In this document: piece by piece, positions 5,163 through 46,165 of the stretch
Layout of the letters: each line of letters starts with the position of its first letter
How positions within the stretch are numbered: the stretch's first letter is position 1
Assembly (NCBI GenBank): GCA_964394685.1
Contig: CAYMYO010000002.1
Coordinates: 98,148 to 162,147, forward strand
Direction: 5' to 3'
Length of the DNA stretch: 64,000 nucleotides
Source: an uncultured Gammaproteobacteria bacterium
GTDB taxonomy: Bacteria; Patescibacteriota; Microgenomatia; UBA10105; UBA927
Position numbers and translations under genes: made by a program
Notes under the pieces: generated by a model
What the model saw: the letters and a program-made list of their open reading frames with translations, nothing else
Told to the model about the DNA's origin: nothing
The model's database searches: none

Positions 5163-5174
5163 CGGTATCTCTTC

Positions 5175-5203
5175 TTGCAAAAATATCATCCTCGGTATAT
5201 TGT
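5175..5203 (+). promoter_or_regulatory. candidate sigma70-type promoter (TTGCAA-N17-TATTGT) upstream of the dehydrogenase gene
   Basis: Hexamers read directly at 5175-5180 and 5198-5203, followed by the GAGGAGG Shine-Dalgarno and the ATG at 5233. Confidence 0.3.
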
Positions 5204-5232
5204 ATGTGTAACTAATTGTTGAGGAGGTATTC

Positions 5233-33125: not shown

Positions 33126-33593
33126 ATGAACGGAAATAAGACAGTTATAGCAATATTACTGTCTGCACTCATGATCTGCGCGACCATTTATTATGTTGGG
33201 AAAAAGCCGGACAAAATTCCGACAGTTATCGTTCCGGAAAGCAATCAGTCGCAAACAGCAATTGCGACGCCAACCGCGGAAATACCAACACTAACAATAG
33301 ATGATCTTGCGCTTATTACCAAAGCAATAGCTCTCAAAACCGGTCTTTCTGAAACGGCAATCAACGTGACCATTTCAAAACACATTGGCGACTACGCAAA
33401 AGGCGGGATAGTAGAAAAGACAAGTGAAGTTGGCGGAGCCCAGTGGTTTGCGGCAAAGAAAAACGGCGCATGGGTTATTGTGCATGATGGGCAGGATTAT
33501 CCGAAATGCAGTGTACTTGTTGGATTTACATTTCCAAAAGAAATATTGGATAGTTGTTGGGACGATGCGACAAACAAGTTAAAAAGTTTGTGA
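33126..33593 (+). CDS. membrane-anchored hypothetical protein
   Basis: An N-terminal TM helix followed by a soluble domain; no recognisable motif. Confidence 0.4.
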   Translation: MNGNKTVIAILLSALMICATIYYVGKKPDKIPTVIVPESNQSQTAIATPTAEIPTLTIDDLALITKAIALKTGLSETAINVTISKHIGDYAKGGIVEKTSEVGGAQWFAAKKNGAWVIVHDGQDYPKCSVLVGFTFPKEILDSCWDDATNKLKSL

Positions 33594-34552
33594 TCAAACG
33601 ATACATAGGCATTTGTATACTTCTTTTTGGAATAGGACTTTATTTTTATTTTTTTCAAAAAGATCAAACGGTGTCACTCTCTCCGATAGTAGAACAATCA
33701 ACATGGACGCTGATAGCTACAGGTGATATTATTCCCGCCCGGTCAGTGAATTACAAAACACTTACGTATAAAGATTTTACCTGGGCGTGGAAGAATATTG
33801 CGCCAATAATAAAAGTTGGTGATATCACGGTTATTAATTTAGAATCTCCGCTTATAGATAATTGTCCAATAACCAACGAAGGCTTCAAATTTTGCGGAGA
33901 CAGCCGTCACATCGAAGGACTGGTTCATGCCGGCGTTGATGTGGCGACACTTGCCAATAACCACATTGGAAATTATGGAAAAAGTGGAATTGATGAAACA
34001 GTACAGCTGCTTCGATCCCATGGTATTGATGTTGCTGGGATTAATGAGGAACCGCCGATATGGGTTGTTAACAACATTCGTGTTGGATTTCTTGCATATA
34101 ACGATATTGGCGCAAAAGAAGAAGGAGTGTCGTGGGCGGATACAAATGTTATGGAAAAGGAAATTCAGAAGTTACGGAATAGTGTTGATGTATTGGTGGT
34201 GTCGATGAGTTGGGGAGAAGAATATATGGTTACACCGTCAGCCAGACAAAAAGAATTGGCTCATTTTATTATTGATAGCGGCGCGGATCTGATTTTAGGC
34301 AATCACCCTCACTGGATTCAGCCGGTCGAAGTGTATCAAGGTAAATATATTGTGTACGCGCATGGCAATACCATATTTGATCAAATGTGGAGCGAAGAAA
34401 CAAAAACAGGTGTTATCGGGAAATATACATTTTCAGGAATGCGGCTTACAAATGTCGAGTTTATACCAACGTATATCAAAGATTATGGTCAGCCAACGCT
34501 TCTTACCGGCGAGGCAAAAAAAGAAATATTACAGAAAATAATGATACTATAA
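33554..34552 (+). CDS. CapA-family (PGA_cap) metallophosphatase-like protein
   Basis: GDITVINLESP...LANNHIGNYGKSG...GNHPHWIQPVE...YAHGNTIFDQ. The track start is a TTG; the true start is uncertain. Confidence 0.75.
   Translation: MLGRCDKQVKKFVIKRYIGICILLFGIGLYFYFFQKDQTVSLSPIVEQSTWTLIATGDIIPARSVNYKTLTYKDFTWAWKNIAPIIKVGDITVINLESPLIDNCPITNEGFKFCGDSRHIEGLVHAGVDVATLANNHIGNYGKSGIDETVQLLRSHGIDVAGINEEPPIWVVNNIRVGFLAYNDIGAKEEGVSWADTNVMEKEIQKLRNSVDVLVVSMSWGEEYMVTPSARQKELAHFIIDSGADLILGNHPHWIQPVEVYQGKYIVYAHGNTIFDQMWSEETKTGVIGKYTFSGMRLTNVEFIPTYIKDYGQPTLLTGEAKKEILQKIMIL
34457..34552 (+). repeat. direct repeat copy A, the in-frame capA 3' end
   Basis: About 75% nt identity to 35954-36049; it encodes EFIPTYIKDYGQPTLLTGEAKKEILQKIMIL*. 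Confidence 0.6.
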
Positions 34553-34582
34553 ATGTATGAGGAAAATTATAACTCTAAATTT

Positions 34583-34606
34583 AATGTTATAGAATTCAAT
34601 AACATT
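34583..34606. repeat. 24-bp palindromic site, copy 1 (AATGTTATAGAATTCAATAACATT)
   Basis: 8-bp arms around a GAATTC core. It lies inside a ~57-bp segment that duplicates an internal part of the KilA-N gene. Confidence 0.6.
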
Positions 34607-34730
34607 AGAAAAGAAGCAGGATTTAATATTTAAACACATCGAATTCGACGGGTTTAAAAATAAACCAACATGTAATTTAATTATGGCGAATTTGCCATAA
34701 TAAAAAAGAATATAAAATAACAAAGTATTT

Positions 34731-35558
34731 ATGAGAAAAATCACAGCTCAAGGCTTTGATATTGCCATTATTCGCAAAGATAATGAGGAATATATTTCTT
34801 TGACCGACATGGCAAAGTTTAAAGATCGTGAAGCAACAGGTATTGTAATTTCTAATTGGTTATCCACGAAATACACGATCCAGTTTGCTGGAGCTTGGGA
34901 ACAAGTTCATAACCCTATGTTTAATGTTATGGAATTCCATAACATTAGAAATGAAGCTGGATCTCATGGATTTATTTTATCCTCTTCAAAATGGATACAA
35001 AAAACAAACGCAATAGGGATACGGTCATCTTCTGGTCGATATGGCGGTACTTTTGCTCACAAAGATATTGCTTTCGAGTTTGCAACATGGATTTCGCCAG
35101 AATTCAAACTCTATCTTATTAAAGAATTCCAGCGGTTAAAAGAAGAAGAAAATAAACGATTGGTTCTCGGATGGGATCTCAAACGTCAGCTTACCAAAAT
35201 TAATTATAGAATTCATACAGACGCAATTAAAGATAATTTACTCCCGAAAACTGTAACAAAGAAACAAGCACAGATAACTTATGCAACCGAGGCAGATATA
35301 TTGAATATCGCACTGTTTAGCAAAACCGCCAAAGACTGGCAAAGTGAAAATAAAAATAAAGAAGGAAATATTCGTGACTATACTGATGTTGTTCAACTTG
35401 TGGTACTCGCTAATCTTGAAAGTATCAACGCAGAATTCATTAAAAAAGGAATTCCTCAATCGGAACGATTAGTTCAACTGAATGCAATTGCCATCTCTCA
35501 AATAAAGTCACTCATCGGCAATCCTTCAATCAAAAAATTAGAACGTGGAAGTAAATAA
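34731..35558 (+). CDS. KilA-N domain protein (phage/plasmid-type)
   Basis: The N-terminal domain FDIAIIRKDNEEYISLTDMAKF...ISNWL...GGTFAHKDIAFEFATWISPEFKLYLIKEF matches the KilA-N consensus (GTxxH.D.A..FA.WiSpeF). Confidence 0.6.
   Translation: MRKITAQGFDIAIIRKDNEEYISLTDMAKFKDREATGIVISNWLSTKYTIQFAGAWEQVHNPMFNVMEFHNIRNEAGSHGFILSSSKWIQKTNAIGIRSSSGRYGGTFAHKDIAFEFATWISPEFKLYLIKEFQRLKEEENKRLVLGWDLKRQLTKINYRIHTDAIKDNLLPKTVTKKQAQITYATEADILNIALFSKTAKDWQSENKNKEGNIRDYTDVVQLVVLANLESINAEFIKKGIPQSERLVQLNAIAISQIKSLIGNPSIKKLERGSK
34923..34946. repeat. 24-bp perfect palindrome, copy 2 (AATGTTATGGAATTCCATAACATT), inside the KilA-N coding sequence
   Basis: Its reverse complement is identical to itself; it encodes FNVMEFHNI. 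Confidence 0.6.
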
Positions 35559-35559
35559 A

Positions 35560-35955
35560 ATGATTAAGAAAAAGCCAGTTTATTCAATCAGCGATAGATT
35601 GTGGGGTGAGGACGGACCCTATTCGGAAGTGAAATTGATTATTGAGACACGGATTTTAGACGAGAGGATAAGCAGGACATTTGTCATCGTTGAAGTATCA
35701 ATAAATCCATATACATTTGAATTAATACGGAAGCATAAGACTTTATTTTATAGTGATAAAATGATCCAGCAATTATTAGAACATTCTGAATATCGAGGGC
35801 AAAGTGATGGATATGTTTCTATGGCATTTTCTGAGGAATATGGACCAGATGTGCTAGAAAAGGCCCAGCAATCAGTCGAATATTGTAAGAATACAATTGT
35901 CAAAATGCACCAATTTGTAATGAAACAATTGAATAATAAAAAAAATATAAATTAA
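35560..35955 (+). CDS. hypothetical protein (element cargo)
   Basis: The ATG at 35560 lies immediately after the KilA-N stop and has a GGAAG Shine-Dalgarno. No recognisable domain. Confidence 0.35.
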   Translation: MIKKKPVYSISDRLWGEDGPYSEVKLIIETRILDERISRTFVIVEVSINPYTFELIRKHKTLFYSDKMIQQLLEHSEYRGQSDGYVSMAFSEEYGPDVLEKAQQSVEYCKNTIVKMHQFVMKQLNNKKNIN

Positions 35956-36049
35956 ATTTATCCCAACCTATATTCAAGACTACGGTCAACCAACCCTTCT
36001 TACCGGCGACGCAAAAGAAAAAGTATTACAAAAGCTAAGTGTAAATTAA
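35954..36049 (+). repeat. direct repeat copy B, the orphan capA 3' end
   Basis: See copy A. It is out of frame with the upstream ORF and ends in TAA at 36047-36049. Confidence 0.6.
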
Positions 36050-36101
36050 TATGTTTACGTTATTATTCACCCATTCTGCCTGCATTAAAAAAAATGTTTT
36101 A

Positions 36102-36758
36102 TTATATTACCTTAGTGGAGTGAACACCTTTTTTGGCGAGGAGATATTTTACAGAAGTATTTTGTTTGTTCAATGAATCTATTACTTTAGAAATTAACTT
36201 TTTTGGATCAGGTCCAAAATGGACTATTGCATTAGTTTTTTTAGGCACTTTTGTGATTAATGTTTTTAAATCGTCTGTGATCCCTCCAGTTTCAGTTAAA
36301 ACGCCAATAATTTTTCCCATCTCATATAGATTAATGAATTCATTTAACGTGCCCCATCTGCCGGAAATAATTATTGCCGCATCACAGTTGGCTGTTGAGA
36401 TAACATTTCTGTAGCATAGCCGCGCAAACTGTTCACATTTGAACTGATTGTTATTCCTTATAAAAAAGAGTTTCTTATAATACGCTGGGACATAAAATAA
36501 TTTGGTAAATATAGAAGGATTATTTTCCGGAAAAAACATTTTATGGTGTTGAAAATCAATTTCAGGAGTAAAACCCCAAATATCTACACCCTTTTTCGAG
36601 GCTTCATTGGCAACCATATAAGGTAATCCCGTGCTCCCGCCGGTTATCAGGATTAAATTTTTACGTTTTCCAAATTCTATTCCTAATTTTTTTGCAAGAA
36701 CTAAAGCTTTTTTGTTATTTTCTACCGCAGATCCAAAAACTCCAATTTTGTATATCAT
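36102..36758 (-). CDS. LOG-family (TIGR00725-like) Rossmann-fold nucleotide-binding protein
   Basis: LILITGGSTGLPYMVANEA (GGxxGxM) and AIIISGRWGTLNEFINLYE (PGGxGTxxE-like), the two LOG signature motifs. Confidence 0.65.
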   Translation of the reverse strand: MIYKIGVFGSAVENNKKALVLAKKLGIEFGKRKNLILITGGSTGLPYMVANEASKKGVDIWGFTPEIDFQHHKMFFPENNPSIFTKLFYVPAYYKKLFFIRNNNQFKCEQFARLCYRNVISTANCDAAIIISGRWGTLNEFINLYEMGKIIGVLTETGGITDDLKTLITKVPKKTNAIVHFGPDPKKLISKVIDSLNKQNTSVKYLLAKKGVHSTKVI

Positions 36759-36794
36759 AAGTTTTTAGACTATATTCTTAAAATAATTATATAC

Positions 36795-38357
36795 TTATTG
36801 CCACTCTATCGTTGCCGGAGGTTTGTCTGTTATATCGTACACGACTCTCCCAACTCCCACTTCGTCAACTATTCTTTTGGAGATTGTTTTAAGGTACGGA
36901 AGTGCCTTTAAGGAAAAATTTGCCGTCATAGAATTTATTGATTCGACTACCCTTACTACAATTGCCTTATTATATTTTTGATGTTCATCTCCTTTGATTC
37001 CAAGACTGGGGACATTGATAAGTATTGCAAATGACATCCATATATCGTTTTTTACCGGGCTATTTTGCAGTGTTTCCTCTATTATTTTAGTAGCTTTTCT
37101 TACAAGTTCTACTTTGCTTCTCGTTACCTCTCCCTGTACTCTTATTGCAAAACCGGGACCTGGAAAAACCTTTTTAAATACTGCTTCATCTGGCAAATTC
37201 AAGAAATTAGCTACCAGCCTCACTTTGTCTTTAAATAAATCCCTAAGGGGTTCTAATAATTCTACATTTAAATGATTTGGTAAGCCGCCAACATTGTGAT
37301 GAGGTTTTATTTGAGATGAAAATTTTGTTACGCCACTTTCTACAACGTCAGACCAAATAGTTCCCTGGGCTACAATTTTTGTGTTGTATTTTTTAGCTAT
37401 TTCTTCGAATATTTCAATGAATGTCTTGCCAATTATTTTGCATTTTTTATCGGGTTTAATTTCTGATTTTAGCGCATTGAAAAATCTATCGCTTTCGTTA
37501 ACGACTTCAAGTTTTATATCAAATTTACGACAAAATAATACAACTTCACTTTGAGTTTCTTTTGGCATTAAACCACTATCAACATAAATTGCAATTATTT
37601 GACTTTTTCTTAAAGCTTTTTTTAATAAAGCTGTCATTGTTAGTGAATCAACTCCACCTGATACAGCGACTATAACTTTGCTTTCCCTCACGCGAGATTT
37701 AATTGACAGTATTGCCTGATCAACGAAAATTTTAGGTGTCCATTTCAATTTCTTTTTGATTTTACAAATTTTGAAGGAAAAATTTGAGAGGATTATATCT
37801 CCCTGTATAGTATGAGAAACTTCGGGGTGAAATTGCACACCGAATAGATTAGAGCCTATTTTTTTATACGCGGTAATAGGTGTGTATTCACTTGATGCTA
37901 ATATTTCGTATCCTTTGGGCAATTGCATTACGGTGTCTCCGTGACTCATCCAAACAATAGAATTATTTGTAACTCCATCGAATAAAGCATTTTTATGGAT
38001 TATTGAAATTTGCGAACTACCATACTCTGATTTTTCTTTTTTTACTTGTCCACCTTTTATTTTGGCTAATAATTGATGGCCATAACAAATTCCCAATACC
38101 GGAGTTCCACTTTCTAGCCATGTTTGATCAAATAGTATGGAGTTCGTTTTAACAGAAGCTGCGCTTCCGGACAATATTAATCCTTTAACTTGAAAATTAT
38201 TATTTTCTATATTTGTTATCCAATCTTTATGACAAATATCAGCCGGCACGATGACTGAATACGCACCAACATCCTGAAGCCTAGATTTAATTAAATGCGT
38301 GTATTGGCTGCCAAAGTCGAATATTAAAATTATCTCTTTTTTTGATACCATGTTCAT
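36795..38357 (-). CDS. guaA: GMP synthase (glutamine-hydrolysing): GATase-1 plus a PP-loop ATP pyrophosphatase
   Basis: A GATase with catalytic Cys (GICYGHQLL), the PP-loop VAVSGGVDSL, and a C-terminal HHNVGGLP dimerisation motif. Confidence 0.85.
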   Translation of the reverse strand: MNMVSKKEIILIFDFGSQYTHLIKSRLQDVGAYSVIVPADICHKDWITNIENNNFQVKGLILSGSAASVKTNSILFDQTWLESGTPVLGICYGHQLLAKIKGGQVKKEKSEYGSSQISIIHKNALFDGVTNNSIVWMSHGDTVMQLPKGYEILASSEYTPITAYKKIGSNLFGVQFHPEVSHTIQGDIILSNFSFKICKIKKKLKWTPKIFVDQAILSIKSRVRESKVIVAVSGGVDSLTMTALLKKALRKSQIIAIYVDSGLMPKETQSEVVLFCRKFDIKLEVVNESDRFFNALKSEIKPDKKCKIIGKTFIEIFEEIAKKYNTKIVAQGTIWSDVVESGVTKFSSQIKPHHNVGGLPNHLNVELLEPLRDLFKDKVRLVANFLNLPDEAVFKKVFPGPGFAIRVQGEVTRSKVELVRKATKIIEETLQNSPVKNDIWMSFAILINVPSLGIKGDEHQKYNKAIVVRVVESINSMTANFSLKALPYLKTISKRIVDEVGVGRVVYDITDKPPATIEWQ

Positions 38358-38367
38358 AGTTATTTAG

Positions 38368-39003
38368 TCAACGTTTTATGGATTTAAAGACAAACCCCTT
38401 TTTTTGTTGCGAAATAAATTCTTTCAAAAAATTAATGTCTTTTGCAGACAGGATTTTTTCGTCAAAAGCGACTTTTAACAAATTATTAATATTTGTAATC
38501 GAACACACATCTACTGATAATCTTTCTTTAATAAAATCATCATGACCATAGCTAAAAATAGCATGTACATATATTTGATAACCCAAGCGTTTTAATTCAT
38601 ATATTGCCGGTTGAATTGTAGCTCCGGACACAATGACATCATCTATGATTACAACTTTATTTCGTCCTGTCGGAATTTGTCCAACAAACCTTCCTTTTTC
38701 GGCATATTCTTTATCACTTTTCCGATATAATACCAGCGGAATATTTAACTTATCAGCAAGTATTGAAGCAAAATATGATCCGCCGCTTTCAATGCCACAA
38801 ACGAGGTCAGTATGAGGGGGTATGATACTCAATAAATCATCAGTAATTATTTTCCTTAGTTTAATGTTATTTAATGTATTTTTAATATTGATAAAAATCG
38901 GGGTCATCCTGTTAGGTTGTACTTCAAAAAATATTTTAGGGCTGTACTTTAATACGCCGGGAGAAGTAACCAATAATCTTTCAAGTTCAAAATTAGAGTT
39001 CAT
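38368..39003 (-). CDS. type I phosphoribosyltransferase, orotate PRTase-like
   Basis: PRPP-binding loop VVIIDDVIVSGATI. The overall layout (GxLKYSPKIFF, GIESGGSYFAS) resembles PyrE. Confidence 0.6.
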   Translation of the reverse strand: MNSNFELERLLVTSPGVLKYSPKIFFEVQPNRMTPIFINIKNTLNNIKLRKIITDDLLSIIPPHTDLVCGIESGGSYFASILADKLNIPLVLYRKSDKEYAEKGRFVGQIPTGRNKVVIIDDVIVSGATIQPAIYELKRLGYQIYVHAIFSYGHDDFIKERLSVDVCSITNINNLLKVAFDEKILSAKDINFLKEFISQQKKGFVFKSIKR

Positions 39004-39165
39004 AGATATACTTATTTATCGAATCGTTTCGCAAAATTTAAGGAATTTATTATTGCATCCTTTTATTCAAGTTAAAGCTGATTATAGCATTATAATAATC
39101 TGTAATGATAGTTTGTATTCTTTATACCGTACCTGTTATATATGAGTTTCTGGTATAATTGTTTC

Positions 39166-39717
39166 ATGCTATATATTTTGGGGGGAGCATCAAGATCAGG
39201 AAAATCCATAATTGCCCGTAGATTTGTTTCGGAAAAGCAAATACCTTTTTTTTGCTTAGACGTTTTAATTACCTCTTTGCAAGAGATCCCATCCCTAGAC
39301 ATTAAACATGGGCAACCTATTATAAGCAAATCAGAAAAGCTGTGGCCGGTAGTTAAACCACTACTTACTCATTTATTTAGGGAGGAACTAAATTATTTGA
39401 TTGAAGGTGATGGGATACTTCCAAGCAAGATAGCCGAATTAATAAAGGATTTTTCAAATGAAATTAAAGCATGTTTTGTCGGCTTTTCTGAGATAAGTCT
39501 TCAAGACAAATTCAAGAAAATAAAAGAATTTGGAGAGAACAAAGATGACTGGACAAAAAGAGTTTCTGATGAAAAATTAATGTCAAACATTGAGGATATG
39601 ATTATGTTTAGTAAGTATCTTAAATCTGAGTGTAATAAATATAACATTCGTTATTTTGATTCATCTGATAATTTTTGTGAATATCTTGAAAACGTATTTC
39701 AGTATTTAACAAAATAA
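39166..39717 (+). CDS. P-loop kinase, chloramphenicol-phosphotransferase (CPT)-like fold
   Basis: Walker A ILGGASRSGKS, similar to the CPT-family GxSSxGKS. The ATG at 39166 is preferred over the track start. Confidence 0.45.
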   Translation: MLYILGGASRSGKSIIARRFVSEKQIPFFCLDVLITSLQEIPSLDIKHGQPIISKSEKLWPVVKPLLTHLFREELNYLIEGDGILPSKIAELIKDFSNEIKACFVGFSEISLQDKFKKIKEFGENKDDWTKRVSDEKLMSNIEDMIMFSKYLKSECNKYNIRYFDSSDNFCEYLENVFQYLTK

Positions 39718-39730
39718 GTTTGAATCTCCT

Positions 39731-41293
39731 CTACCGCTCCGTCATTATATATTTTAAGGCCGTCTTGTTGTTGGGTTCACAGATCAGAGCATTTTCAAAA
39801 CAATGAATGGCAGTATTATAAAAACGTTGGTTTAGAAATTTTTCTCCCTGAGTGATATGATTTTGTATTGGTTGTTTGTACCAAAACGTAAGCAGGGAAG
39901 ATTTTGGATTTTCAACGGCAAATTTTGATAATGTTTTGTGGGCTAATTGATACTGATGGTTAGCAGCTTGAGCTATTGCTATATTAATAGCAACTTCAGG
40001 AATGGTGGATGCTGCCTGTTTGAAGTTGTCTATAGCTTCAGTATATTTATGTAATCCCAATAGAGCTTTTCCCCGTTTCAATGTTAAATCTGCATTCCTG
40101 TGTGTTGTGTTTTTTGAAAGTATGTTCAGAGATTCGGTGAATTTCCCTAACGCAAGTAACACGTCAATGTGATGATATCTCGGCTTGCTGTCATTCGTAT
40201 TACGTTTTTTTGTATGAATAGGTGTGGGGTTTTGTGTATAATATTCGATAATTCGTTTCTTTGCATGGGTCAGCTGGTTCGGGTAATTATTTATCTGACC
40301 TGATTTAAGAAGTGTATAAAAAAGTTGTCGGTTTTGTTTGTATTCAAGATGCTTATTTTCAGTTCTTGCGGGGTGGCTTATGTGTAAACCGGAAGCCGCA
40401 TAGACAGGTACAACAAAGTTTCCTACCGAAATTGCTTTAGCCGCTAGATGACCATCCTCACATCCCCACCCACAAAACCGCTCATCATACCCGCCGATTT
40501 CATAGTATGTAGATTTCGGCAAGCTGAAAAGTGCTCCAATAACGAGATCAGATAGAAGCCATGGATCATAGTTATTACGCATCCAGAGGCCGTGCAAATG
40601 GCCCAAATTTTTAAAATGGTTACTTGTCAGGCACATGTTGTCTGGAAATCCAGGAGAGGGGAAAGCTATTCTTTCATCTCTTACAAGAGATGAATATTGA
40701 TGGGACCCATATCGACGAATGTATTTTGGATTTATCAGAAGACTGTTTTTGGATATATTTGAACGAAAACCAGCCAACAATACGTTCGAGAATTGTCGGT
40801 GTCGCTCGATAAAATGCTCAATGGTATAGTGTGACAAAACCATGTCTGCGTCGCAAGAAATAATAATTTCATTTTCAGCAATAGAAATTCCGGTGTTTAG
40901 CGCTTGAGCTCGTCCGTGGTGTTTTTGTTTTATGGCTGTAAGATTTAATGCAAGCGTATTTTTTTTAATAATTTCCCATGTCCCGTCATCGGATCCGTCA
41001 TCTACCACGAGAACTTGCAGTCTATTTTGATGCTCTACATTAAAACTACTTTGTTCAATCGATGTTAAGCAGGAAAGTATAGATGATGCAGCATTTCTTG
41101 CTGGAATAACTACGGTTGCTGTTATTTTTTTAGCAGAAGTTGATTTTGCCGGTGGCGAAAAAGGATCCAGCAGGTCTAATTTATTAACCTTAAAGTATTT
41201 TTCCTCAATTTGGGAATAGTCGTTGCTTTTTTTCTCAAGAGCTTTTTTTTGATTCATTGTATGTTGGTTTTTGCAAAACCCATATAACAGCAA
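39731..41293 (-). CDS. family-2 glycosyltransferase fused to C-terminal TPR repeats
   Basis: A GT2 domain (VVIPARNAASSI...LQVLVVDDGSDDGT...ISCDADMV) followed by TPR-like repeats. The start may be the internal Met at 41257. Confidence 0.7.
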   Translation of the reverse strand: MLLYGFCKNQHTMNQKKALEKKSNDYSQIEEKYFKVNKLDLLDPFSPPAKSTSAKKITATVVIPARNAASSILSCLTSIEQSSFNVEHQNRLQVLVVDDGSDDGTWEIIKKNTLALNLTAIKQKHHGRAQALNTGISIAENEIIISCDADMVLSHYTIEHFIERHRQFSNVLLAGFRSNISKNSLLINPKYIRRYGSHQYSSLVRDERIAFPSPGFPDNMCLTSNHFKNLGHLHGLWMRNNYDPWLLSDLVIGALFSLPKSTYYEIGGYDERFCGWGCEDGHLAAKAISVGNFVVPVYAASGLHISHPARTENKHLEYKQNRQLFYTLLKSGQINNYPNQLTHAKKRIIEYYTQNPTPIHTKKRNTNDSKPRYHHIDVLLALGKFTESLNILSKNTTHRNADLTLKRGKALLGLHKYTEAIDNFKQAASTIPEVAINIAIAQAANHQYQLAHKTLSKFAVENPKSSLLTFWYKQPIQNHITQGEKFLNQRFYNTAIHCFENALICEPNNKTALKYIMTER

Positions 41294-42110
41294 CAGGTAA
41301 TCCTTCGAGCGCTTTGGATATGGTTGTTATATTTAGTTTGGACCCCTTTTGTAGAATTTGAATCTGTTCTGTCATTATTTTCGGTTCCTGACATTGTAGT
41401 ATTTTGAGAGACGCCTTATTAAACGCATTGATGTATGTACTATGCCAGAAAACATTATCTTTAATATAACCCCACCCGTCTTTTTTATCATGGAACTCTG
41501 CGTGAGCACCTAATGCGACAAGCCAGGGATGTACGCTTGAAATCACAATATATCCGCCAGGGAGTACGACCCGGGTAAGTTCTTTGATAACTTCGTCAAT
41601 ATTTGTTACATAATGTATTGCGAGTCCGCATACCACGAGGTTAAATTTTTCGTTTTCAAAGGGTAGTGTATTTAAGTCACCCTGGATAAAGTTTATATTT
41701 TTGTTTTTCTTTTTTGCTAATTTAAGCATGTCGTCCGATATATCAATTCCCGTTACATTGTGTCCAATTGAATTAAGAAATGCACTATATCTTCCTGTGC
41801 CACAAGCTGCATCTAAGGCGGCACCAGGAGTAAATTTTTTCAATATTGATTTAACAACAGGTTCTTCAACTTGAATTAAGATATTTTGCTCTTTATCATA
41901 TGTTTTTGACCATATCTTATATCCTGTTTTAATACCATGTTCAATTGCTTTTTGGTCACGAATATTGTGGACGTCTTTTTCGGTCCTGGAGATAAATGAA
42001 ATTTCTTTAAAAATAGACAATATAGACGCATTATTTCCAATAAGCCAATTTCTCAGTAACGCTAAACCGGCATATCCGAGCGCGCGTTGTTTTTCGTAGT
42101 TGATAACCAT
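41235..42110 (-). CDS. class I SAM-dependent methyltransferase (Methyltransf_11-like)
   Basis: SAM motif I ALDAACGTGRYSAFL and motif post-I VTGIDISDDM. Confidence 0.7.
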   Translation of the reverse strand: MVINYEKQRALGYAGLALLRNWLIGNNASILSIFKEISFISRTEKDVHNIRDQKAIEHGIKTGYKIWSKTYDKEQNILIQVEEPVVKSILKKFTPGAALDAACGTGRYSAFLNSIGHNVTGIDISDDMLKLAKKKNKNINFIQGDLNTLPFENEKFNLVVCGLAIHYVTNIDEVIKELTRVVLPGGYIVISSVHPWLVALGAHAEFHDKKDGWGYIKDNVFWHSTYINAFNKASLKILQCQEPKIMTEQIQILQKGSKLNITTISKALEGLPVAVIWVLQKPTYNESKKSS

Positions 42111-42150
42111 TATCCTGTATAATAAGATAGTCTGTTTGAAAGGGCAATAT

Positions 42151-43359
42151 ATGGATCCATACTATAAGAAAGACATAACGTTTCACTATAATGACCGTGA
42201 GTTACATTTTCGTGTTTCACAATCACTGTTTAGTTCGCAGGATATTGATTTGGGAACCAGGCATCTCATTAAGACTATTGCAGATGTCAAACTACAAAAC
42301 TGTAGAAAAATATTAGATTTAGGATGTGGCTACGGACCTATCGGTATTGCCTTAAAAACTGTGCACCCATCCAGTGAAGTTCAGATGGTTGATAAGGATG
42401 CTCTCGCCCTTAGTTATTGCTGCCAAAATCTTGAACTTAATAATCTATCAGGTGTCAAAGTATATGCTAGTCTTGGCTACGACGATGTTGCAGATAACGA
42501 TTTCGATTTAATAGTTTCAAATATTCCCGCAAAGGTAGGAGATAGAGTCATTACACATATGCTAAAGGATTCCAGATTTCATCTCAAACGCGGCGGTCGA
42601 ATGGCTATCGTCGTTATAGATGCCATAGGTGATTACATAACTAAAGAACTCAACGATTCTGGAATAAATATAGTGTTTACTAAAAAATGGCCAGGGTATT
42701 TAGTTTTTCACTATGAATTTTTACCGGCGCATGTTTCAAATACGAGGCAGTCTCCAGATTCATTTATGAGCGGTATTTATGATCGTGAGCAAAAACTCAT
42801 TACTCGCGATGGGATTAGTTTTTTTATACAAACAACATATAATTTACCAGAATTTGACACGATTAGTTATGAAACAGATTTAGTGCTTAATTCTCTAAAG
42901 ATATTTAGAAATAAACAGTTTAATACCGTTCTGGTATTTAACCCCAGACAGGGATATATTCCTGTTACACTGTCTAAAATAACAAGCGTTCGAAAAATTT
43001 GTCTTGTTGATCGGGATATGCAAGCATTAAAATTGTCACAAAAAAACCTTTTGTCCAATGGGTACCCAGCGGAGAATATATCGTTAACACATCAGGTAGG
43101 AATTTCTATTCAGGACGAAGAGTTAATTGATTGCATAGTGGGGGTTCTGGATGAGGATAATAATCTAGATATTCAGTCTCTCTATTTACAAGAAGCAGCA
43201 AGCCAGATTTCGAAAAGCGGAATTGTAATTTTTGCAGCAGGTTCCACTATGATTACGCGTCTGGAGGGTTTGCTTCATAGACAAAAAATTTTGCAAATAG
43301 TAGCAAGAAAGCGATCAAAAGGGAAAAGCGTTATCATCATGAAACGCAAAGCTCAATAA
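42151..43359 (+). CDS. SAM-dependent methyltransferase with an N-terminal MTS (RsmC/RlmG-type small) domain and a C-terminal degenerate second Rossmann-like domain
   Basis: ILDLGCGYGPIGIAL...VQMVDKDALAL...DLIVSNIP (an NPPF/NIP-type motif IV). The ATG at 42151 is preferred over the TTG at 42100. Confidence 0.55.
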   Translation: MDPYYKKDITFHYNDRELHFRVSQSLFSSQDIDLGTRHLIKTIADVKLQNCRKILDLGCGYGPIGIALKTVHPSSEVQMVDKDALALSYCCQNLELNNLSGVKVYASLGYDDVADNDFDLIVSNIPAKVGDRVITHMLKDSRFHLKRGGRMAIVVIDAIGDYITKELNDSGINIVFTKKWPGYLVFHYEFLPAHVSNTRQSPDSFMSGIYDREQKLITRDGISFFIQTTYNLPEFDTISYETDLVLNSLKIFRNKQFNTVLVFNPRQGYIPVTLSKITSVRKICLVDRDMQALKLSQKNLLSNGYPAENISLTHQVGISIQDEELIDCIVGVLDEDNNLDIQSLYLQEAASQISKSGIVIFAAGSTMITRLEGLLHRQKILQIVARKRSKGKSVIIMKRKAQ

Positions 43360-43428
43360 ACTCTTTTGGTGAAATGATTACCCCAGTAAAGAGCTACCGG
43401 TCGCATGAGGAAGAAAAAAATTTCTGAG

Positions 43429-43809
43429 TTATACTTTAGTCTTCTGTGGACATCTAATTTTTTCTTGAACTACATCCGCTTTTCCGATTTTGATGGGATT
43501 AATCAGTTCCTGTAGCCAATATGCGTTCGTTGGTAAAGCGTCTACCGAAGCGGTGATAATATATTTCCCTAAAGCACGGCTACAAACAAAATCCCGGCTT
43601 TTTCCAAACATAAATTCTTCAGGCTTAATACGAGTTATGTTTGTTGTGTATGATTGGAGTTTATTAAAGGTTTCATCTCCTTTGCCGTAATATAATACAA
43701 CCAGTCCGATAGGGAAGATTTACTTTTTGAGTTTTCAGTTTTTTTAAAAATTTGTCCAAGATTTTTCCAGTGTCTCTCACCATTATGGTTACTGAAATTA
43801 AATCTCTCA
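43429..43809 (-). pseudogene. probable frameshifted remnant of a glycosyltransferase-like gene
   Basis: Two adjacent minus-strand reading frames. One reads MRDLISVTIMVRDTGKILDKFLKKL..., a GT2-like N-terminus, and ends at a TGA. The other reads ...ILPIGLVVLYYGKGDETFNKL...CPQKTKV. Together they cover most of an otherwise empty 450-bp gap. Confidence 0.3.
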
Positions 43810-43812
43810 TAC

Positions 43813-44787
43813 TTATTTCCAGTTTTTAGGTGTTAAACCGCTAGGCAACTCAAGTTTCGTATATGTATATTCCTGCGGCCCTTGCTGTTTCACCCAGTTC
43901 CAGGTCTCCTCCAATGCTTTTTGAAATGGCGTATCTTTGTAGCCGAACACCTGTTTGATTAACGTATGATCTGGCACGGCAGTATTAATTTCCTGTACCC
44001 GATCTGGTAAGTATGCCGGTAAAATAGAACGTTTGCATATTTTTTGGATAGCTTCAGAGAGTTCGTTTATTGACCAATCCATATCCGAACCAACGTTAAA
44101 TGTCATTCCTGCAACCTGTTCGAATCCACAACGATAGATGATATAAACAACATCTTTAACATAGGAGAAGCAGCGTCGCATTTCGCCGTTCCCATATATG
44201 GAGTACGGTTTATTTCTCAGGATGTGATTCATAAAAAGTGTCACAACGTTCCGATATGGATCTTTCATGTTTTGCCTCGGTCCGAATACGTTGTGAGGTC
44301 TGACGATAACGAATTCAAATCCGTGTACCTGACTCATCACTTTAAGTGAATTTTCGTTTGTGAGTTTGCTGATTCCGTAAATATCCTGCGGAATCGGAGT
44401 GTCCGATTCTTTAAAGGTTATTGTGATTGACCCATACACGGCGACACTGGAAGTAAAAACGAACCGCTTTATTTTTTTTGCCCGAATAGACGGGACGAGC
44501 GTGTTGAAAAAAACATTTATATTATTATTCGTTATTTCAATAGGAGAGAACAACGATTTACCTTCTGCGGCATCAGCCGCTAGTCCATACACTATTTCTG
44601 GGGAAATCGACTCAATTATCCTTTTAGACTTCTCGGTGTCTTTAAGATCTAGATAAAAATTATGGCATTTCGTATTCTCGTTCCTATTGGTTCCGGAGAT
44701 TCCATAGACCTCATGTCCTTTTGACAACAACAGATCGACAAGATGTGACCCGATAAATCCGGAATGGCCAGTTACAAGACATTTCAT
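43813..44787 (-). CDS. NAD-dependent epimerase/dehydratase (extended SDR family)
   Basis: The N-terminal Rossmann motif MKCLVTGHSGFIGSHLV and the catalytic YxxxK region (YGISK). The start is taken at the Met giving the canonical N-terminus. Confidence 0.75.
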   Translation of the reverse strand: MKCLVTGHSGFIGSHLVDLLLSKGHEVYGISGTNRNENTKCHNFYLDLKDTEKSKRIIESISPEIVYGLAADAAEGKSLFSPIEITNNNINVFFNTLVPSIRAKKIKRFVFTSSVAVYGSITITFKESDTPIPQDIYGISKLTNENSLKVMSQVHGFEFVIVRPHNVFGPRQNMKDPYRNVVTLFMNHILRNKPYSIYGNGEMRRCFSYVKDVVYIIYRCGFEQVAGMTFNVGSDMDWSINELSEAIQKICKRSILPAYLPDRVQEINTAVPDHTLIKQVFGYKDTPFQKALEETWNWVKQQGPQEYTYTKLELPSGLTPKNWK

Positions 44788-44868
44788 AATAAGTACCTGA
44801 ATTATCTGCTTTTTGGCCCGTAACATCAACTGTTGAGTAATGAGTACCGTTGAAGTACAATTATATCA

Positions 44869-46005
44869 ATGAAGAGGCTGGTTCTCACCGCACAGGATTT
44901 TGCATTTGGATCAATAGGGCCACTACTGTATCTTGCGGATCTGCTCAAAGACAAAGAACATGAGTTGATTTTTGTCGGTTTTGGTACTTCTTTGCAACTT
45001 GCTAAAAAATTCCCGTTTGACGAAATTTATGAGCTGGATACCGAAGATCCTAAAACCACTGCAGAGCTAGAGGCAATCATATCCAAATCAGACGCCGTCA
45101 TTAGCTGTACAGATATTCCAAGTATTATAGCTGCCAAGAAGTTTAAAAAAATAACGGTTTGGGAAGATATTTTATTTTGGTTCTGGCCGGAAATTCCAGA
45201 AGCGCTCTTTGATGTCGATCTATATATTCGTGAACGGGCGTTTGACGCAAGCGTGAATGAGGCTAGATATGGTACTAAGATAAAAAACCTTTTCACGGTG
45301 GGTCCGATTATGGGTACCGTTCAAAAACGTATTAGGACGAATCAAGCAATTATTTCATACGGCGGTGCACAGGCGACGCATGTGTATCAGGTCGGCAAAG
45401 ATACTAATTACCCCTTCGTCATGACAGATATTTTATCTAAATATGTTGATTGGTCAGATTTTAAGCGTGTGATTTTAGCGACCAGTGAACAAGTGATTGA
45501 ACAATTGAAAACTCGTTTTTCGAACACACCATTTGAATTTGCCACACTTGCACACGATACATTTTTAACGGAGATGTCTCGGTCTCAGGTAATACTCATC
45601 ACTCCTGGCTTGATAACAACGCAATGTGCTTTTTATTCGGAAACTCCGGTAATTTTTCTTCCGGGATCAAACGATAGTCAGTATTTGCAGATAAATGATC
45701 TGCGTAGCCTCGGTTTGGCGCCAGCGTCTGTTGGGTTAAATGATTTTCTTCCAAAGCTCGATTTATTACACCTGCCCGGTAGTGAAAGTACGAAGCTAGT
45801 GATGGAACAATTACGGTTACTTGAAAAATCGCTGGACACTCAGATGCAAATTGGTACTCGTATAAATGAGTTAGTTAAAACTCGTGATATTTGGTCCAAG
45901 GAATCTGTACCTAAAGGCAAAATGTATATAGATTCGTTGGGAGGTAATGGAGCTAGTTTAGCAGCAAAAAAAATTAAGAAACTTTTAACTTTGCAAAATA
46001 AGTAA
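44869..46005 (+). CDS. GT-B fold glycosyltransferase (MurG/UGT-like), putative
   Basis: A two-Rossmann-domain layout with a Gly-rich N-terminal loop AFGSIGPLLYL and C-terminal nucleotide-sugar-binding-like segments. This is an inference from the pattern only. Confidence 0.4.
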   Translation: MKRLVLTAQDFAFGSIGPLLYLADLLKDKEHELIFVGFGTSLQLAKKFPFDEIYELDTEDPKTTAELEAIISKSDAVISCTDIPSIIAAKKFKKITVWEDILFWFWPEIPEALFDVDLYIRERAFDASVNEARYGTKIKNLFTVGPIMGTVQKRIRTNQAIISYGGAQATHVYQVGKDTNYPFVMTDILSKYVDWSDFKRVILATSEQVIEQLKTRFSNTPFEFATLAHDTFLTEMSRSQVILITPGLITTQCAFYSETPVIFLPGSNDSQYLQINDLRSLGLAPASVGLNDFLPKLDLLHLPGSESTKLVMEQLRLLEKSLDTQMQIGTRINELVKTRDIWSKESVPKGKMYIDSLGGNGASLAAKKIKKLLTLQNK

Positions 46006-46135
46006 TCCACAATATTTCGACCAGGATTATAGGATTATTCAAATCATAAAAAGAGGAAGCACATTGGGATATACTGAAATAGTACATTCTCTAGACATAC
46101 AACACTTTTTTTTGTACAATAGGGAATAAGAAAGC

Positions 46136-46165
46136 ATGAACTGCTTTGTGAAAGCAGTTCTTTTT
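46136..46165 (+). terminator. rho-independent terminator downstream of the glycosyltransferase gene
   Basis: GAACTGCTTT gtga AAGCAGTTC, a perfect 10-bp stem, followed by TTTTTATG. Confidence 0.5.

What the first reader, a model, noticed from the sequence alone, without database searches (positions are those of the whole stretch)
34457..36049. KilA-N gene cassette inserted at the capA 3' end with a duplicated, diverged gene tail
The last ~96 nt of capA (34457-34552, encoding ...EFIPTYIKDYGQPTLLTGEAKKEILQKIMIL*) recur 1.4 kb downstream at 35954-36049, encoding KFIPTYIQDYGQPTLLTGDAKEKVLQKLSVN* with no upstream ORF. The two copies share about 75% nt identity. Between them sit a KilA-N domain protein and one hypothetical gene. 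This is the footprint of an integrative element that landed in the 3' end of capA and supplied a replacement gene end. No integrase remains, so it is probably a decayed remnant.
Basis: seen in the sequence. Interest (0 to 1): 0.7.

Follow-up and report, generated by a model that had tools for sequence, protein, structure and literature searches.

The report
Mobile KilA-N gene splits capA end
A duplicated end of the capA gene marks where a small, widely travelling KilA-N gene (a candidate anti-phage gene with no recombinase of its own) wedged into a recurrent insertion hot spot. All 78 aligned family members and four more distant copies carry a conserved hairpin-forming palindrome inside the coding sequence, and older copies appear to be overwritten just downstream of it.

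Summary
34457-34552 and 35954-36049 are two in-frame versions of the capA 3' end (73/96 nt identical; best 82-mer 67/82 against at most 46/82 in shuffles).

Between them lie three short stubs of other KilA-N genes, an intact KilA-N gene and a small accessory ORF. The KilA-N gene matches Pfam PF04383 and, over its full length, PADLOC candidate PDC-S22.

The "decayed integrase element" reading is only partly right:
- The tails differ mostly at third codon positions, and tail B still matches the clade consensus. They therefore look like versions from different lineages, with tail A the atypical, probably imported end.
- The insert is the inner layer of an 11.5-kb low-GC island at the capA-fusA junction. 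Relatives use the same junction for other insertions.
- No recombinase gene was found in the island.

Family-wide results:
- The gene occurs in many phyla at 55-80% identity.
- It can be inserted almost ORF-exact.
- It is flanked by duplicated local target sequence in 15/71 loci, against 5/271 control ORFs.
- All 78 aligned homologs and four more distant copies carry a 30-32-nt palindrome at codons 64-73. Compensatory changes that alter amino acids in pairs maintain it.
- Palindrome-bearing stubs of other variants pile up just upstream of intact genes.

The mechanism of movement remains inferred.

The parts
33590..34552 (+). capA (CapA/PGA_cap family), the reading frame currently in use; its GTG start overlaps the TGA stop of the upstream 155-aa gene
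   Evidence: PF09587 at E 2.4e-60. 100% identical to P0001, and 75-83% identical to clade homologs.
34457..34552 (+). Tail A: the capA 3' end in use. It is atypical after the 14-nt core (…EAKKEILQKIMIL*) and is probably imported with the insert
34499..34512 (+). 14-nt block CTTCTTACCGGCGA, identical in both tails (second copy at 35996-36009); a candidate crossover point
   Evidence: The insertion in L083 breaks capA about 2 nt upstream of this block.
34556..34627 (+). Stub P1: fragment of another KilA-N gene (codons about 56-79, YEENYNSKFNVIEFNNIRKEAGFN) containing palindrome 34580-34609. It starts 3 nt after the stop codon of tail A
   Evidence: 85% identical to 34909-34967 (D3). tblastn E 8e-07 to 1e-07. 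13/15 pairs.
34629..34660 (+). Stub P2: fragment of a KilA-N gene of a different subtype (FKHIEFDGFKNK), with palindrome 34629-34658 TTTAAACACATCGAATTCGACGGGTTTAAA
   Evidence: The same subtype is found inside genes in L037, L044, L047, L053 and L071.
34661..34708 (.). Stub P3: fragment of a third subtype (FNYGEFAIIK, 10/10 aa and 29/30 nt identical to the L055 gene), with palindrome 34676-34705. Its flanks fit better on the minus strand
34731..35558 (+). Intact KilA-N gene, 275 aa, PADLOC phage-defence candidate PDC-S22. N-terminal KilA-N domain plus a conserved all-helical C-terminal half of unknown function
   Evidence: PF04383 at E 3e-21. PDC-S22 at E 6.8e-126 over residues 2-272. PHROG 2657 at E 3e-54. 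More than 8000 homologs. 762 clusters at 50% identity with E<=1e-30.
34920..34949 (+). Palindrome inside the gene, TTTAATGTTATGGAATTCCATAACATTAGA (codons 64-73, FNVMEFHNIR); 14/15 pairs
   Evidence: Family-wide covariation test.
35560..35955 (+). ORF2, 131 aa, an accessory hypothetical gene. It is not linked to KilA-N elsewhere, and its stop codon overlaps the first codon of tail B
   Evidence: 35 homologs, those named mostly Gottesmanbacteria. Other contexts: L162 (near ParE) and L163 (AbiEii, RhuM and PRiA4 as neighbours).
35954..36049 (+). Tail B: the displaced earlier capA end (…DAKEKVLQKLSVN*). It has no frameshift and keeps the clade consensus
36050..46086 (.). Outer layer of the island: about 10 kb of low-GC DNA absent from relatives. 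It encodes a SLOG/LOG-like protein, guaA, a phosphoribosyltransferase, a GT2+TPR protein, two methyltransferases, an epimerase and two ORFs with no hit. No recombinase domain was found in the ORFs scanned
46087..46100 (+). Remnant of the ancestral capA stop region, TTCTCTAGACATAC (compare L085 CAGTTCTAGACACGAAC). It is followed by the conserved capA terminator hairpin at 46138-46160 and by fusA at 46307-48409

Best explanation
What it is. The two 96-nt segments are two versions of the capA 3' end. The 1.4 kb between them is an insertion made of three short stubs of earlier KilA-N genes, one intact KilA-N gene of the PDC-S22 family, and one small accessory ORF.
- Copy A, joined to capA, is the replacement end.
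- Copy B is the previous end, pushed downstream.
- The event is the innermost layer of an 11.5-kb variable island at the capA-fusA junction. Related genomes use the same junction for other insertions.

Shown for the family:
- This KilA-N gene spreads across bacterial and archaeal phyla as a solitary unit of about ORF size, with no recombinase gene of its own.
- It sits precisely at gene boundaries, for example between hsdM and hsdS.
- It is often flanked by a duplicated piece of the local target, so both neighbours stay intact.
- All 78 aligned homologs and four more distant copies carry a 30-32-nt hairpin-forming palindrome at codons 64-73, kept by compensatory changes.
- Where two variants meet, the older one is retained up to and including its palindrome, and a complete new gene follows within 8-48 nt.

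Inferred:
- The capA tail duplication is the ordinary footprint of this cassette family, not the att scar of a decayed integrase element.
- Tail A came in with the insert from another lineage.
- The palindrome is the cassette's cis-acting recombination or breakpoint site. The enzyme could be the KilA-N protein or a host function; neither is identified.
For: Insertion and hot spot:
- L085, L081 and L082 have capA followed directly by fusA. The window has fusA at 46307.
- L083 and L084 have a PDC-S01 ATPase gene inserted within about 2 nt of the window's 14-nt core, with a 10-nt duplication.
- L086 has about 1 kb inserted at the capA stop.
- The sister contig L161 has the same KilA-N gene (93% aa identity) between the 155-aa gene and the capA start. 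That insert is TTTT + ORF + TAA with an 8-nt duplication.

Tails are versions from different lineages:
- Differences fall 8/2/13 by codon position. There are 10 aa changes against 14.7 expected from random substitutions (P 0.007).
- B matches clade tails better than A does.

Family footprint:
- Flanking direct repeats occur in 15/71 KilA-N loci against 5/271 control ORFs (Fisher p 1e-07).
- The repeats are local gene ends, gene starts or terminators, not shared element ends.

Palindrome:
- 95.2% of cells pair against 78.7% in shuffles (0/500 shuffles reach it). There are 215 double-sided changes against 61, and slid controls reach at most 61.6%.
- There are 33 distinct arm sequences.
- It is also present in plasmid, phage and satellite copies.

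Stubs:
- Orphan palindromes were found only just upstream of KilA-N genes within about 1.15 Mb of fetched loci and the 64-kb window.
- L016 and L027 keep the first 72-75 codons of an older gene, ending 6-30 nt after its palindrome.

No recombinase domain was found in the island.
Against: - No excision product, circular form or filled/empty pair at strain level was seen. Proteins identical to P0175 or P0135 always sit in a single context, so movement is rare or old.
- Only 21% of loci show flanking repeats.
- Insert ends share no consensus. That fits generic illegitimate recombination as well as a dedicated mechanism.
- No nuclease or recombinase fold was detected in the protein. The AF2 model has pLDDT 58, Foldseek gave nothing significant and the PDB profile search gave nothing.
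- No donor with an A-like tail was found.
- An unrelated gene (PDC-S01) left a similar footprint at the same capA site, so the site or the host may matter more than the cargo.
- The bias towards G:T over A:C mismatches (53 against 15) points to folding of the sense strand. That would also fit a purely regulatory mRNA hairpin. The bias is mostly one Lys/Arg position; without it the counts are 26 against 15, p 0.12.
Confidence: 0.55

Rival explanations
1. Passive cargo. The KilA-N gene is an ordinary horizontally transferred defence-type gene with no role in its own movement. The insert entered once by generic recombination from a related genome that already had the cassette behind capA. That would be a homologous crossover inside capA on the left and an illegitimate join on the right (homology-facilitated illegitimate recombination). 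Selection keeps only insertions that preserve both neighbours, which is why duplications are seen. Under this view the palindrome is an mRNA or operator hairpin that controls expression of a potentially toxic protein. The stubs would be leftovers that survive because they still fold.
For: - The tails look like versions from two lineages.
- An unrelated PDC-S01 gene and a 1-kb gene used the same junction.
- Identical proteins are stable in one context.
- No enzymatic fold was found.
- Mismatches favour sense-strand G:T wobble.
- In phage EW and satellite Javan279 the gene sits in the usual accessory-gene position between the repressor module and the integrase.
Against: - It does not explain why breakpoints between successive KilA-N variants fall 0-30 nt after the palindrome in the window, L016, L027, L069 and L076.
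- It does not explain why stubs of three different subtypes, one of them inverted, stack at one junction.
- It does not explain the 14-fold excess of flanking repeats over neighbouring ORFs.
- The longest perfect match between the tails is 14 nt, which is short for RecA-type recombination.
Confidence: 0.27
2. An integrase-type integrative element inserted into the capA 3' end and brought a surrogate gene end. attL would be tail A, attR tail B, and the core CTTCTTACCGGCGA. The integrase and most of the element were later deleted.
For: - The direct repeats share a 14-nt identical core flanked by diverged arms, and the gene end is restored by imported sequence.
- Homologs of the KilA-N gene do occur next to integrases in phage EW and Javan279.
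Against: - No integrase lies between the repeats or in the adjoining 10 kb.
- Both genes between the repeats are intact, not decayed.
- Solitary KilA-N genes elsewhere show the same footprint at unrelated targets, with duplications that start or stop exactly at ORF boundaries and with no integrase nearby.
- L161 carries the same gene at a different site 1 kb away, with an ORF-exact insert.
Confidence: 0.08
3. In-situ target duplication. The 96 nt were duplicated at the moment of insertion, for example by widely staggered breaks that were filled in. The copies were identical at first and have since diverged in place.
For: Near-identical flanking duplications exist at other loci: L008 46 nt at 98%, L067 101 nt at 96%, L019 121 nt at 94%. 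In-situ duplication therefore does happen in this family.
Against: - With 24% divergence, the unused copy B should look like a pseudogene. Instead it has no frameshift or stop, matches the clade consensus at 22-25 of 26 residues, and the differences avoid second codon positions.
- The copy under selection (A) is the one that departs from the consensus.
Confidence: 0.08

Closest known systems
PADLOC phage-defence candidate PDC-S22 (genes found embedded in type I R-M, BREX and DISARM loci; Payne et al. 2024, bioRxiv 10.1101/2024.01.29.577857)
   Same: There is a full-length HMM match at E 6.8e-126. Relatives sit between hsdM and hsdS-hsdR (L166-L173; L078).
   Different: Here the gene is not inside a defence system but behind capA. 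The paper leaves open how and why genes become embedded. The search found no report of the target duplications, the palindrome inside the gene or the stubs. I know of no reported test of defence activity for PDC-S22.
Prophages and genomic islands that integrate into the 3' end of a gene and carry a surrogate end (attL/attR duplication) - from general knowledge
   Same: The gene tail is duplicated, the reading frame is restored by incoming sequence, the old end is displaced downstream, and there is a short identical core.
   Different: There is no integrase. The repeats bracket 1.4 kb of a larger island. Across the family, targets and repeat lengths vary (8-151 nt) and include gene starts and intergenic terminators.
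Mobile ORFs that replace a gene's C-terminal coding end, e.g. the endonuclease ORF with a foreign atp6 end in Allomyces mitochondria (Paquin, Laforest & Lang 1994; recalled, not checked here)
   Same: The layout is host gene body, then foreign version of the gene end, then mobile ORF, then displaced native end.
   Different: No nuclease domain is detectable in the KilA-N protein. The host is a bacterium of the Patescibacteria type, not an organelle.
Integron gene cassettes (ORF plus attC)
   Same: Both are ORF-sized mobile units whose only conserved cis element is an imperfect palindrome. In both, the structure is conserved while the sequence varies.
   Different: attC lies 3' of the ORF, whereas this palindrome lies inside the ORF and is codon-aligned. 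No IntI/attI platform and no cassette array are seen. The duplications are of target DNA.
Type III toxin-antitoxin loci (ToxIN-like: an array of short repeats upstream of the toxin gene) - from general knowledge
   Same: An array of short structured units, with a period of about 47-49 nt, lies directly upstream of a gene whose family name comes from a host-killing phage P1 protein.
   Different: The units are not identical repeats but fragments of three different KilA-N gene subtypes. They occur in only about 10% of loci. No endoribonuclease domain was found.

Membership tests
KilA-N domain proteins (Pfam PF04383) | Profile match above the gathering score | tested here: met
   75.7 bits against a cut-off of 23.8, E 3e-21, residues 13-138.
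PADLOC PDC-S22 | Full-length match to the PDC-S22 HMM | tested here: met
   E 6.8e-126, residues 2-272 on model positions 5-275 of 281.
PADLOC PDC-S22 | Gene embedded within a type I R-M, BREX or DISARM operon | tested here: not met
   The neighbours in the window are capA and a hypothetical ORF. The feature is met in relatives L166-L173, which read hsdM-KilA-N-hsdS-hsdR.
PADLOC PDC-S22 | Protects against phage | not testable with these tools
   It is only a candidate in the source paper.
Integrase-type integrative element in a gene 3' end | Tyrosine or serine recombinase gene within the element | tested here: not met
   No recombinase domain was found in the ORFs scanned between 34553 and 46086. 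Three ORFs (ORF2 35560-35955, 39142-39717 and 44869-46005) have no Pfam hit at all.
Integrase-type integrative element in a gene 3' end | attL/attR direct repeats with an identical core at both ends of the whole element | tested here: inconclusive
   A 14-nt identical core exists. However, the repeats bracket only 1.4 kb of the 11.5-kb island.
Integrase-type integrative element in a gene 3' end | Target reading frame restored by element-borne sequence | tested here: met
   Tail A completes capA and is the atypical version.
Insertion sequence / DNA transposon | Transposase gene, terminal inverted repeats, target duplication of fixed length | tested here: not met
   The inserts can be the ORF plus 3-12 nt (L161, L008). 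The ends share no consensus. Duplications range from 8 to 151 nt.
Integron gene cassette | attC site 3' of the ORF, within an IntI/attI platform | tested here: not met
   The palindrome lies at codons 64-73 inside the ORF. No integrase was found in the island. The rest of the window was not scanned for IntI.
Free-standing homing endonuclease gene | Recognisable nuclease domain (LAGLIDADG, GIY-YIG, HNH, PD-(D/E)xK) | tested here: not met
   Pfam, NCBIfam and PHROGs give only KilA-N or 'transcriptional regulator'. The PDB profile search gave nothing. The Foldseek best hit was E 0.015 on a low-confidence model. A novel fold cannot be excluded.
Type III toxin-antitoxin | Tandem near-identical RNA repeats upstream of an endoribonuclease toxin | tested here: not met
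   The three upstream units are of different subtypes and one is inverted. Most loci have none.

The most novel reading that the evidence does not exclude
The PDC-S22 KilA-N gene may be a new kind of selfish element: a mobile unit of about ORF size whose only cis-acting site is a hairpin hidden inside its own coding sequence. Under this reading the encoded protein, or a host enzyme that recognises the hairpin, drives insertion at gene boundaries with variable target duplication. Incoming variants would overwrite resident ones just 3' of their hairpin. Because a palindrome is complementary to another copy of itself, the stacked stubs could also act on the mRNAs of specific rival variants, whichever way they are transcribed, and so serve as a record of them. 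Many 'embedded defence genes' would then owe their position to self-insertion rather than to co-function.
Probability: 0.22. Interest if true: 0.9.

Novelty: new variant of a known kind. Interest (0 to 1): 0.74.

Why it matters
Hundreds of candidate defence genes are recognised only because they sit embedded inside other systems. How they get there is an open question, which the source paper itself leaves open.

This locus and its relatives give that question a concrete, testable anatomy:
- an almost ORF-exact insert;
- a duplicated piece of the neighbouring gene, which keeps operons intact;
- a hairpin inside the gene, conserved so strongly that it dictates pairs of amino acids;
- stubs which suggest that variants replace each other at that hairpin.

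If the hairpin proves to be a recombination site, this is a compact new mobility system. It would also be a caution against reading 'embedded' as 'functionally linked'.

If the hairpin is regulatory, it is still an unusual case of a nucleic-acid structure constraining protein sequence across bacteria and archaea.

Tried and rejected
- **Chance similarity of the tails:** rejected by shuffles.
- **A motif shared between the window and L083 inserts (CGACGGGTTTAAA)** first looked like an att site. It turned out to be the KilA-N palindrome of another subtype.
- **Shared element ends:** the flanking repeats differ from locus to locus and are local gene ends, so they are not terminal repeats of an element.
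- **Function of the C-terminal half:**
  - The AlphaFold2 model had mean pLDDT 58.
  - The Foldseek PDB best hit was DdrC at E 0.015 and TM 0.3, which is not meaningful.
  - The profile search against PDB gave nothing.
  - NCBIfam gave nothing.
- **Rfam** on 34300-36300 gave no hit.
- **Strain-level filled and empty sites:**
  - E. coli genomes hold only one distant partial match.
  - The contigs carrying the identical ORF2 protein (L182, L183) show the same gene order.
  - Identical KilA-N proteins always sit in one context.
- **Second capA tails in 80 other capA loci:** a motif scan found none. Only 30 loci were scorable.
- **Literature searches** for PDC-S22, and for KilA-N with palindrome or with R-M and embedded, found nothing relevant.
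- **ORF2 as part of the cassette:** rejected. It is absent from the L161 insert and occurs in other contexts.
- **Promoter or terminator in the spacer:** none found.
Full report
**1. The observation**

The repeat is real. The repeat finder gives 34460-34541 against 35957-36038, 82 nt at 82% identity and in register. Both end in TAA at the same alignment position, and similarity stops there. The 82-mer matches at 67/82 against a maximum of 46/82 in 300 shuffles of the downstream 3 kb.

- capA (GTG 33590 to 34552) is a PGA_cap/CapA protein at E 2.4e-60.
- ORF 34731-35558 has a KilA-N domain at E 3e-21.
- ORF2 (35560-35955) has 35 homologs but no family assignment.
- Source names attached to homologs point to a Patescibacteria (Microgenomates/Gottesmanbacteria-like) genome.

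**2. It is an insertion, and it is nested in a larger one**

The closest capA loci (75-83% protein identity) have a single tail followed directly by fusA and tuf (L085, L081, L082). In the window fusA lies at 46307-48409 and tuf at 48486-49670.

Homology to the relatives' capA-fusA spacer resumes at about 46087. There a remnant of the ancestral stop region (TTCTCTAGACATAC; L085 has CAGTTCTAGACACGAAC) precedes the conserved terminator hairpin at 46138-46160.

Everything from 34553 to 46086 is therefore extra. It has lower GC (31-40% against 41-44% in the flanks). Beyond the KilA-N cassette it encodes:

- a SLOG/LOG-like protein,
- GMP synthase,
- a phosphoribosyltransferase,
- a GT2+TPR protein,
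- two methyltransferases,
- an epimerase,
- two ORFs with no Pfam hit.

No recombinase or transposase domain was found in the ORFs scanned. The two capA tails bracket only the innermost 1.4 kb.

Tail B ends …VLQKLSVN*. That resembles the long tails of some relatives (…QKLNTNL*, …QKIHTNE*) rather than the short …VLQQF* form that abuts fusA. In L086 a long tail is likewise followed by inserted DNA and then the TAGACACGAAC remnant. I infer that an older insertion created the long tail type, and that the KilA-N event came later.

**3. The junction is a hot spot**

- In L083 and L084 a minus-strand gene for an AAA_14+DUF4143 ATPase (PADLOC candidate PDC-S01, E 3e-104) interrupts capA about 2 nt upstream of the window's 14-nt core. 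It comes with a 10-nt duplication (GGCCAACCAA). capA reads into the insert, and the native end sits 1.4 kb downstream, before fusA.
- L086 has about 1 kb of inserted DNA at the capA stop; L088 shares its capA tail.
- L161 is a syntenic sister contig (81-83% nt identity in host genes). It carries a KilA-N gene 93% identical in protein, but between the 155-aa gene and the capA start. The insert is TTTT + ORF + TAA. An 8-nt duplication (TTTGTGAT) preserves the upstream TGA stop and the capA GTG start.

**4. Which tail is which**

The 23 differences fall 8/2/13 on codon positions 1/2/3 (chi-square p 0.019). Nine differing codons are synonymous and ten are not. Twenty-three random substitutions give 14.7 amino-acid changes on average, and 10 or fewer in 0.7% of trials.

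Tail B has no stop or frameshift. It matches clade homologs at 22-25 of 26 residues, whereas tail A matches at 18-21. At the DNA level B is also slightly closer to the relatives, mainly in the last 24 nt.

A copy that had been unused long enough to accumulate 24% divergence should not look like this. I conclude, by inference, that the tails diverged as working gene ends in different lineages and that B was displaced fairly recently. A is the atypical version, and only after the identical block CTTCTTACCGGCGA (34499-34512 and 35996-36009).

No donor with an A-like tail was found. The reverse assignment, with B arriving together with the 10-kb island, is not excluded.

**5. The KilA-N gene is not ordinary cargo**

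*Assignment and spread*

- It matches PADLOC's PDC-S22 over its full length (E 6.8e-126) and PHROG 2657.
- PDC models derive from genes embedded in type I R-M, BREX and DISARM loci (Payne et al. 2024). One CPR homolog indeed sits hsdM-KilA-N-hsdS-hsdR in every contig carrying it.
- The family is large and unusually uniform. There are more than 8000 hits, with 71-80% identity among the 120 best hits, most of those named being CPR lineages.
- Identity is 55-75% in Gammaproteobacteria, Bacteroidota, Verrucomicrobiota, Nitrospira, spirochaetes and DPANN archaea.
- It forms 762 clusters at 50% identity with E<=1e-30.
- It is rare on phages and plasmids. In Staphylococcus phage EW and satellite Javan279 it lies between the repressor module and the integrase.

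*Flanking duplications*

In 15 of 71 testable loci the gene is flanked within 450 nt by a direct repeat, against 5 of 271 other ORFs of similar size in the same loci (odds ratio 14, p 1e-07). Two of five further CPR loci also show flanking repeats.

The repeats are pieces of the local target, not element ends:

| Repeat is | Loci and length |
|---|---|
| 3' end of the upstream gene | L038 151 nt, L067 101 nt, L078 42 nt |
| 5' start of the downstream gene | L008 46 nt, L076 64 nt |
| intergenic DNA, with terminator-like hairpins in some | L019, L031, L005 |

Repeats often begin or end exactly at the start or stop codon. Inserts can be almost ORF-exact: 12 nt + ORF + 5 nt in L008, and 4 nt + ORF + 3 nt in L161. 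Their ends share no consensus.

**6. A palindrome inside the coding sequence**

*Conservation*

All 78 aligned homologs have a 30-32-nt palindrome centred on GAATTC at codons 64-73 (F-[NK]-x-x-E-F-x-x-[IF]-[KR]).

- 11-15 of 15 pairs are complementary in each homolog, and there are 33 different arm sequences.
- Changes are compensatory and alter amino acids in pairs. Examples are NVMEFHNI (AATGTTATGGAATTCCATAACATT), KPVEFDGF (AAACCCGTCGAATTCGACGGGTTT), NYGEFATI, KLVEFDQF, KGVEFDSF and NRVEFDTV.
- On the 78-sequence alignment, 95.2% of cells pair against 78.7% in shuffles (0 of 500 shuffles reach it). There are 215 double-sided changes against 61. Sliding one arm gives at most 61.6%.
- The palindrome is also present in gammaproteobacterial plasmid copies, in phage EW and in Javan279 at about 50% protein identity.

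*Which strand folds*

Mismatches favour G:T over A:C on the sense strand (53 against 15). Half of these come from one Lys/Arg position, and without it the counts are 26 against 15, p 0.12. This hints weakly that the sense strand, as mRNA or as ssDNA, is what folds.

*Prior reports*

Rfam has nothing here. The literature searches for KilA-N with palindromes or PDC-S22 found no report of it.

**7. Stubs**

The 178-nt spacer between the stop of tail A and the KilA-N ATG consists almost entirely of three fragments of other KilA-N genes. Each is centred on its palindrome and each is of a different subtype.

| Stub | Coordinates | Content |
|---|---|---|
| P1 | 34556-34627 | codons about 56-79; 85% identical to the resident gene |
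| P2 | 34629-34660 | FKHIEFDGFK type |
| P3 | 34661-34708 | FNYGEFAIIK; 29/30 nt identical to the gene in L055; flanks fit better on the minus strand |

They fold as three hairpins (z-score -3.7).

With a strict palindrome criterion, orphan copies occur nowhere else in the 64-kb window or in 560 kb of capA loci. In 591 kb of KilA-N loci all but one of them lie within about 120 nt upstream of KilA-N genes (L017, L033, L069 with two, L076). The exception is an AT-rich match in L053 that looks like chance. In L076 the stubs start exactly at the left duplication boundary.

L083 keeps a decayed P2-type stub even though its cargo is now the ATPase.

In L016 (Bacteroidales) and L027 (Nanoarchaeota) the first 72-75 codons of an older, about 40%-identical KilA-N gene survive. 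They end 6-30 nt after its palindrome and are followed by a complete new gene. L016 has a further orphan in between.

The empirical rule is that a resident copy is retained up to and including its palindrome, and new sequence begins within a few tens of nucleotides.

**8. How it most likely works**

*Shown*

- There is an insertion at a recurrent junction.
- The tails carry the signature of coding divergence, not of one decaying copy.
- The cassette family shows near ORF-exact inserts, target duplications, a conserved palindrome and palindrome-linked breakpoints.

*Inferred*

- The capA duplication is this family's ordinary footprint.
- The palindrome is the cis site, or fragile point, at which KilA-N DNA recombines.

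Mechanisms that would fit include:

- template switching at a folded hairpin, which would allow joins in either orientation;
- a structure-specific nick by the KilA-N protein or a host enzyme;
- Campbell-type entry of a circle carrying a short copy of the target.

None of these is demonstrated. No catalytic fold was recognised, although the helical C-terminal half has many invariant polar residues (R152, Y159, H162, D189, R215, D216).

No promoter-like site lies upstream of the KilA-N gene in the spacer, and there is no terminator after tail A. The cassette is therefore probably read through from capA.

The main rival is that the gene is passive cargo moved by generic recombination and that the hairpin is regulatory. 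That rival explains the lack of conserved ends and the PDC-S01 insertion at the same site. It does not explain the palindrome-linked breakpoints or the 14-fold excess of flanking repeats.

**9. Verdict**

The locus itself is a new example of a known kind of event. The family-level features it exposed appear to be undescribed and deserve follow-up.

Noticed in passing
window 36050-46086: About 10 kb of low-GC DNA between tail B and the fusA upstream region, absent from relatives. It encodes a SLOG/LOG-like protein, guaA, a phosphoribosyltransferase, a GT2+TPR protein, two methyltransferases and an epimerase, with no recombinase. It looks like a metabolic/cell-surface island in the same hot spot.
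   Followed up: partly
window 46087-46100 and 46138-46160: A remnant of the ancestral capA stop region (TTCTCTAGACATAC) and the conserved capA terminator hairpin now lie 11.5 kb from the gene they belonged to.
   Followed up: yes
L083/L084 5909-7300: An AAA_14+DUF4143 ATPase gene (PADLOC PDC-S01) is inserted in the capA 3' end, within about 2 nt of the window's 14-nt core. It has a 10-nt duplication and a decayed KilA-N palindrome stub at 7217-7246.
   Followed up: partly
L086 about 4990-5950: About 1 kb of DNA is inserted at the capA stop codon, followed by the TAGACACGAAC remnant and fusA. By eye it looks like a membrane-protein gene, but no ORF call or Pfam scan was run.
   Followed up: no
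L161 607-1455: The sister lineage carries the same KilA-N gene (93% aa identity) on the other side of capA, as an ORF-exact insert with an 8-nt duplication. The gene's divergence (86% nt) is similar to that of the host genes (81-83%), which is puzzling if the two insertions were independent.
   Followed up: partly
L164 (Photorhabdus pPAU1) and L165 (Aeromonas pK520-TEM): On both plasmids examined, the KilA-N gene lies directly next to a small serine recombinase (an invertase/resolvase-type 'recombinase family protein'). In one case this is inside a Tn3-family transposon. A functional link was not tested.
   Followed up: no
L174-L181 and L189/L190: In two different CPR lineages (Roizmanbacteria-type and Shapirobacteria-type) the KilA-N gene abuts yceG, once in the same orientation and once convergent with zero spacer. 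This may be another recurrent target.
   Followed up: no
L081 about 4230-4330: The capA reading frame runs straight into the fusA coding region (…VLQQFYCY* overlapping …[10 protein letters not shown]). The capA-fusA spacer is missing in this contig, which could be a deletion or an assembly artefact.
   Followed up: no
L004 1203-2003; L130 8114-8770 and 8942-9679; L148 1619-2593; L114 2277-3134: Five control ORFs also have flanking direct repeats. They are a YidC-like protein, a PaaX-like protein, a CAP-domain protein and two with no hit. Whether these are insertions too was not examined.
   Followed up: partly
window 35560-35955 (ORF2); L162, L163: ORF2 belongs to a tiny family (35 homologs; those with a source name are mostly Gottesmanbacteria). 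It turns up next to ParE, AbiEii, RhuM and PRiA4-type genes, so it is itself probably an island or defence-neighbourhood gene.
   Followed up: partly
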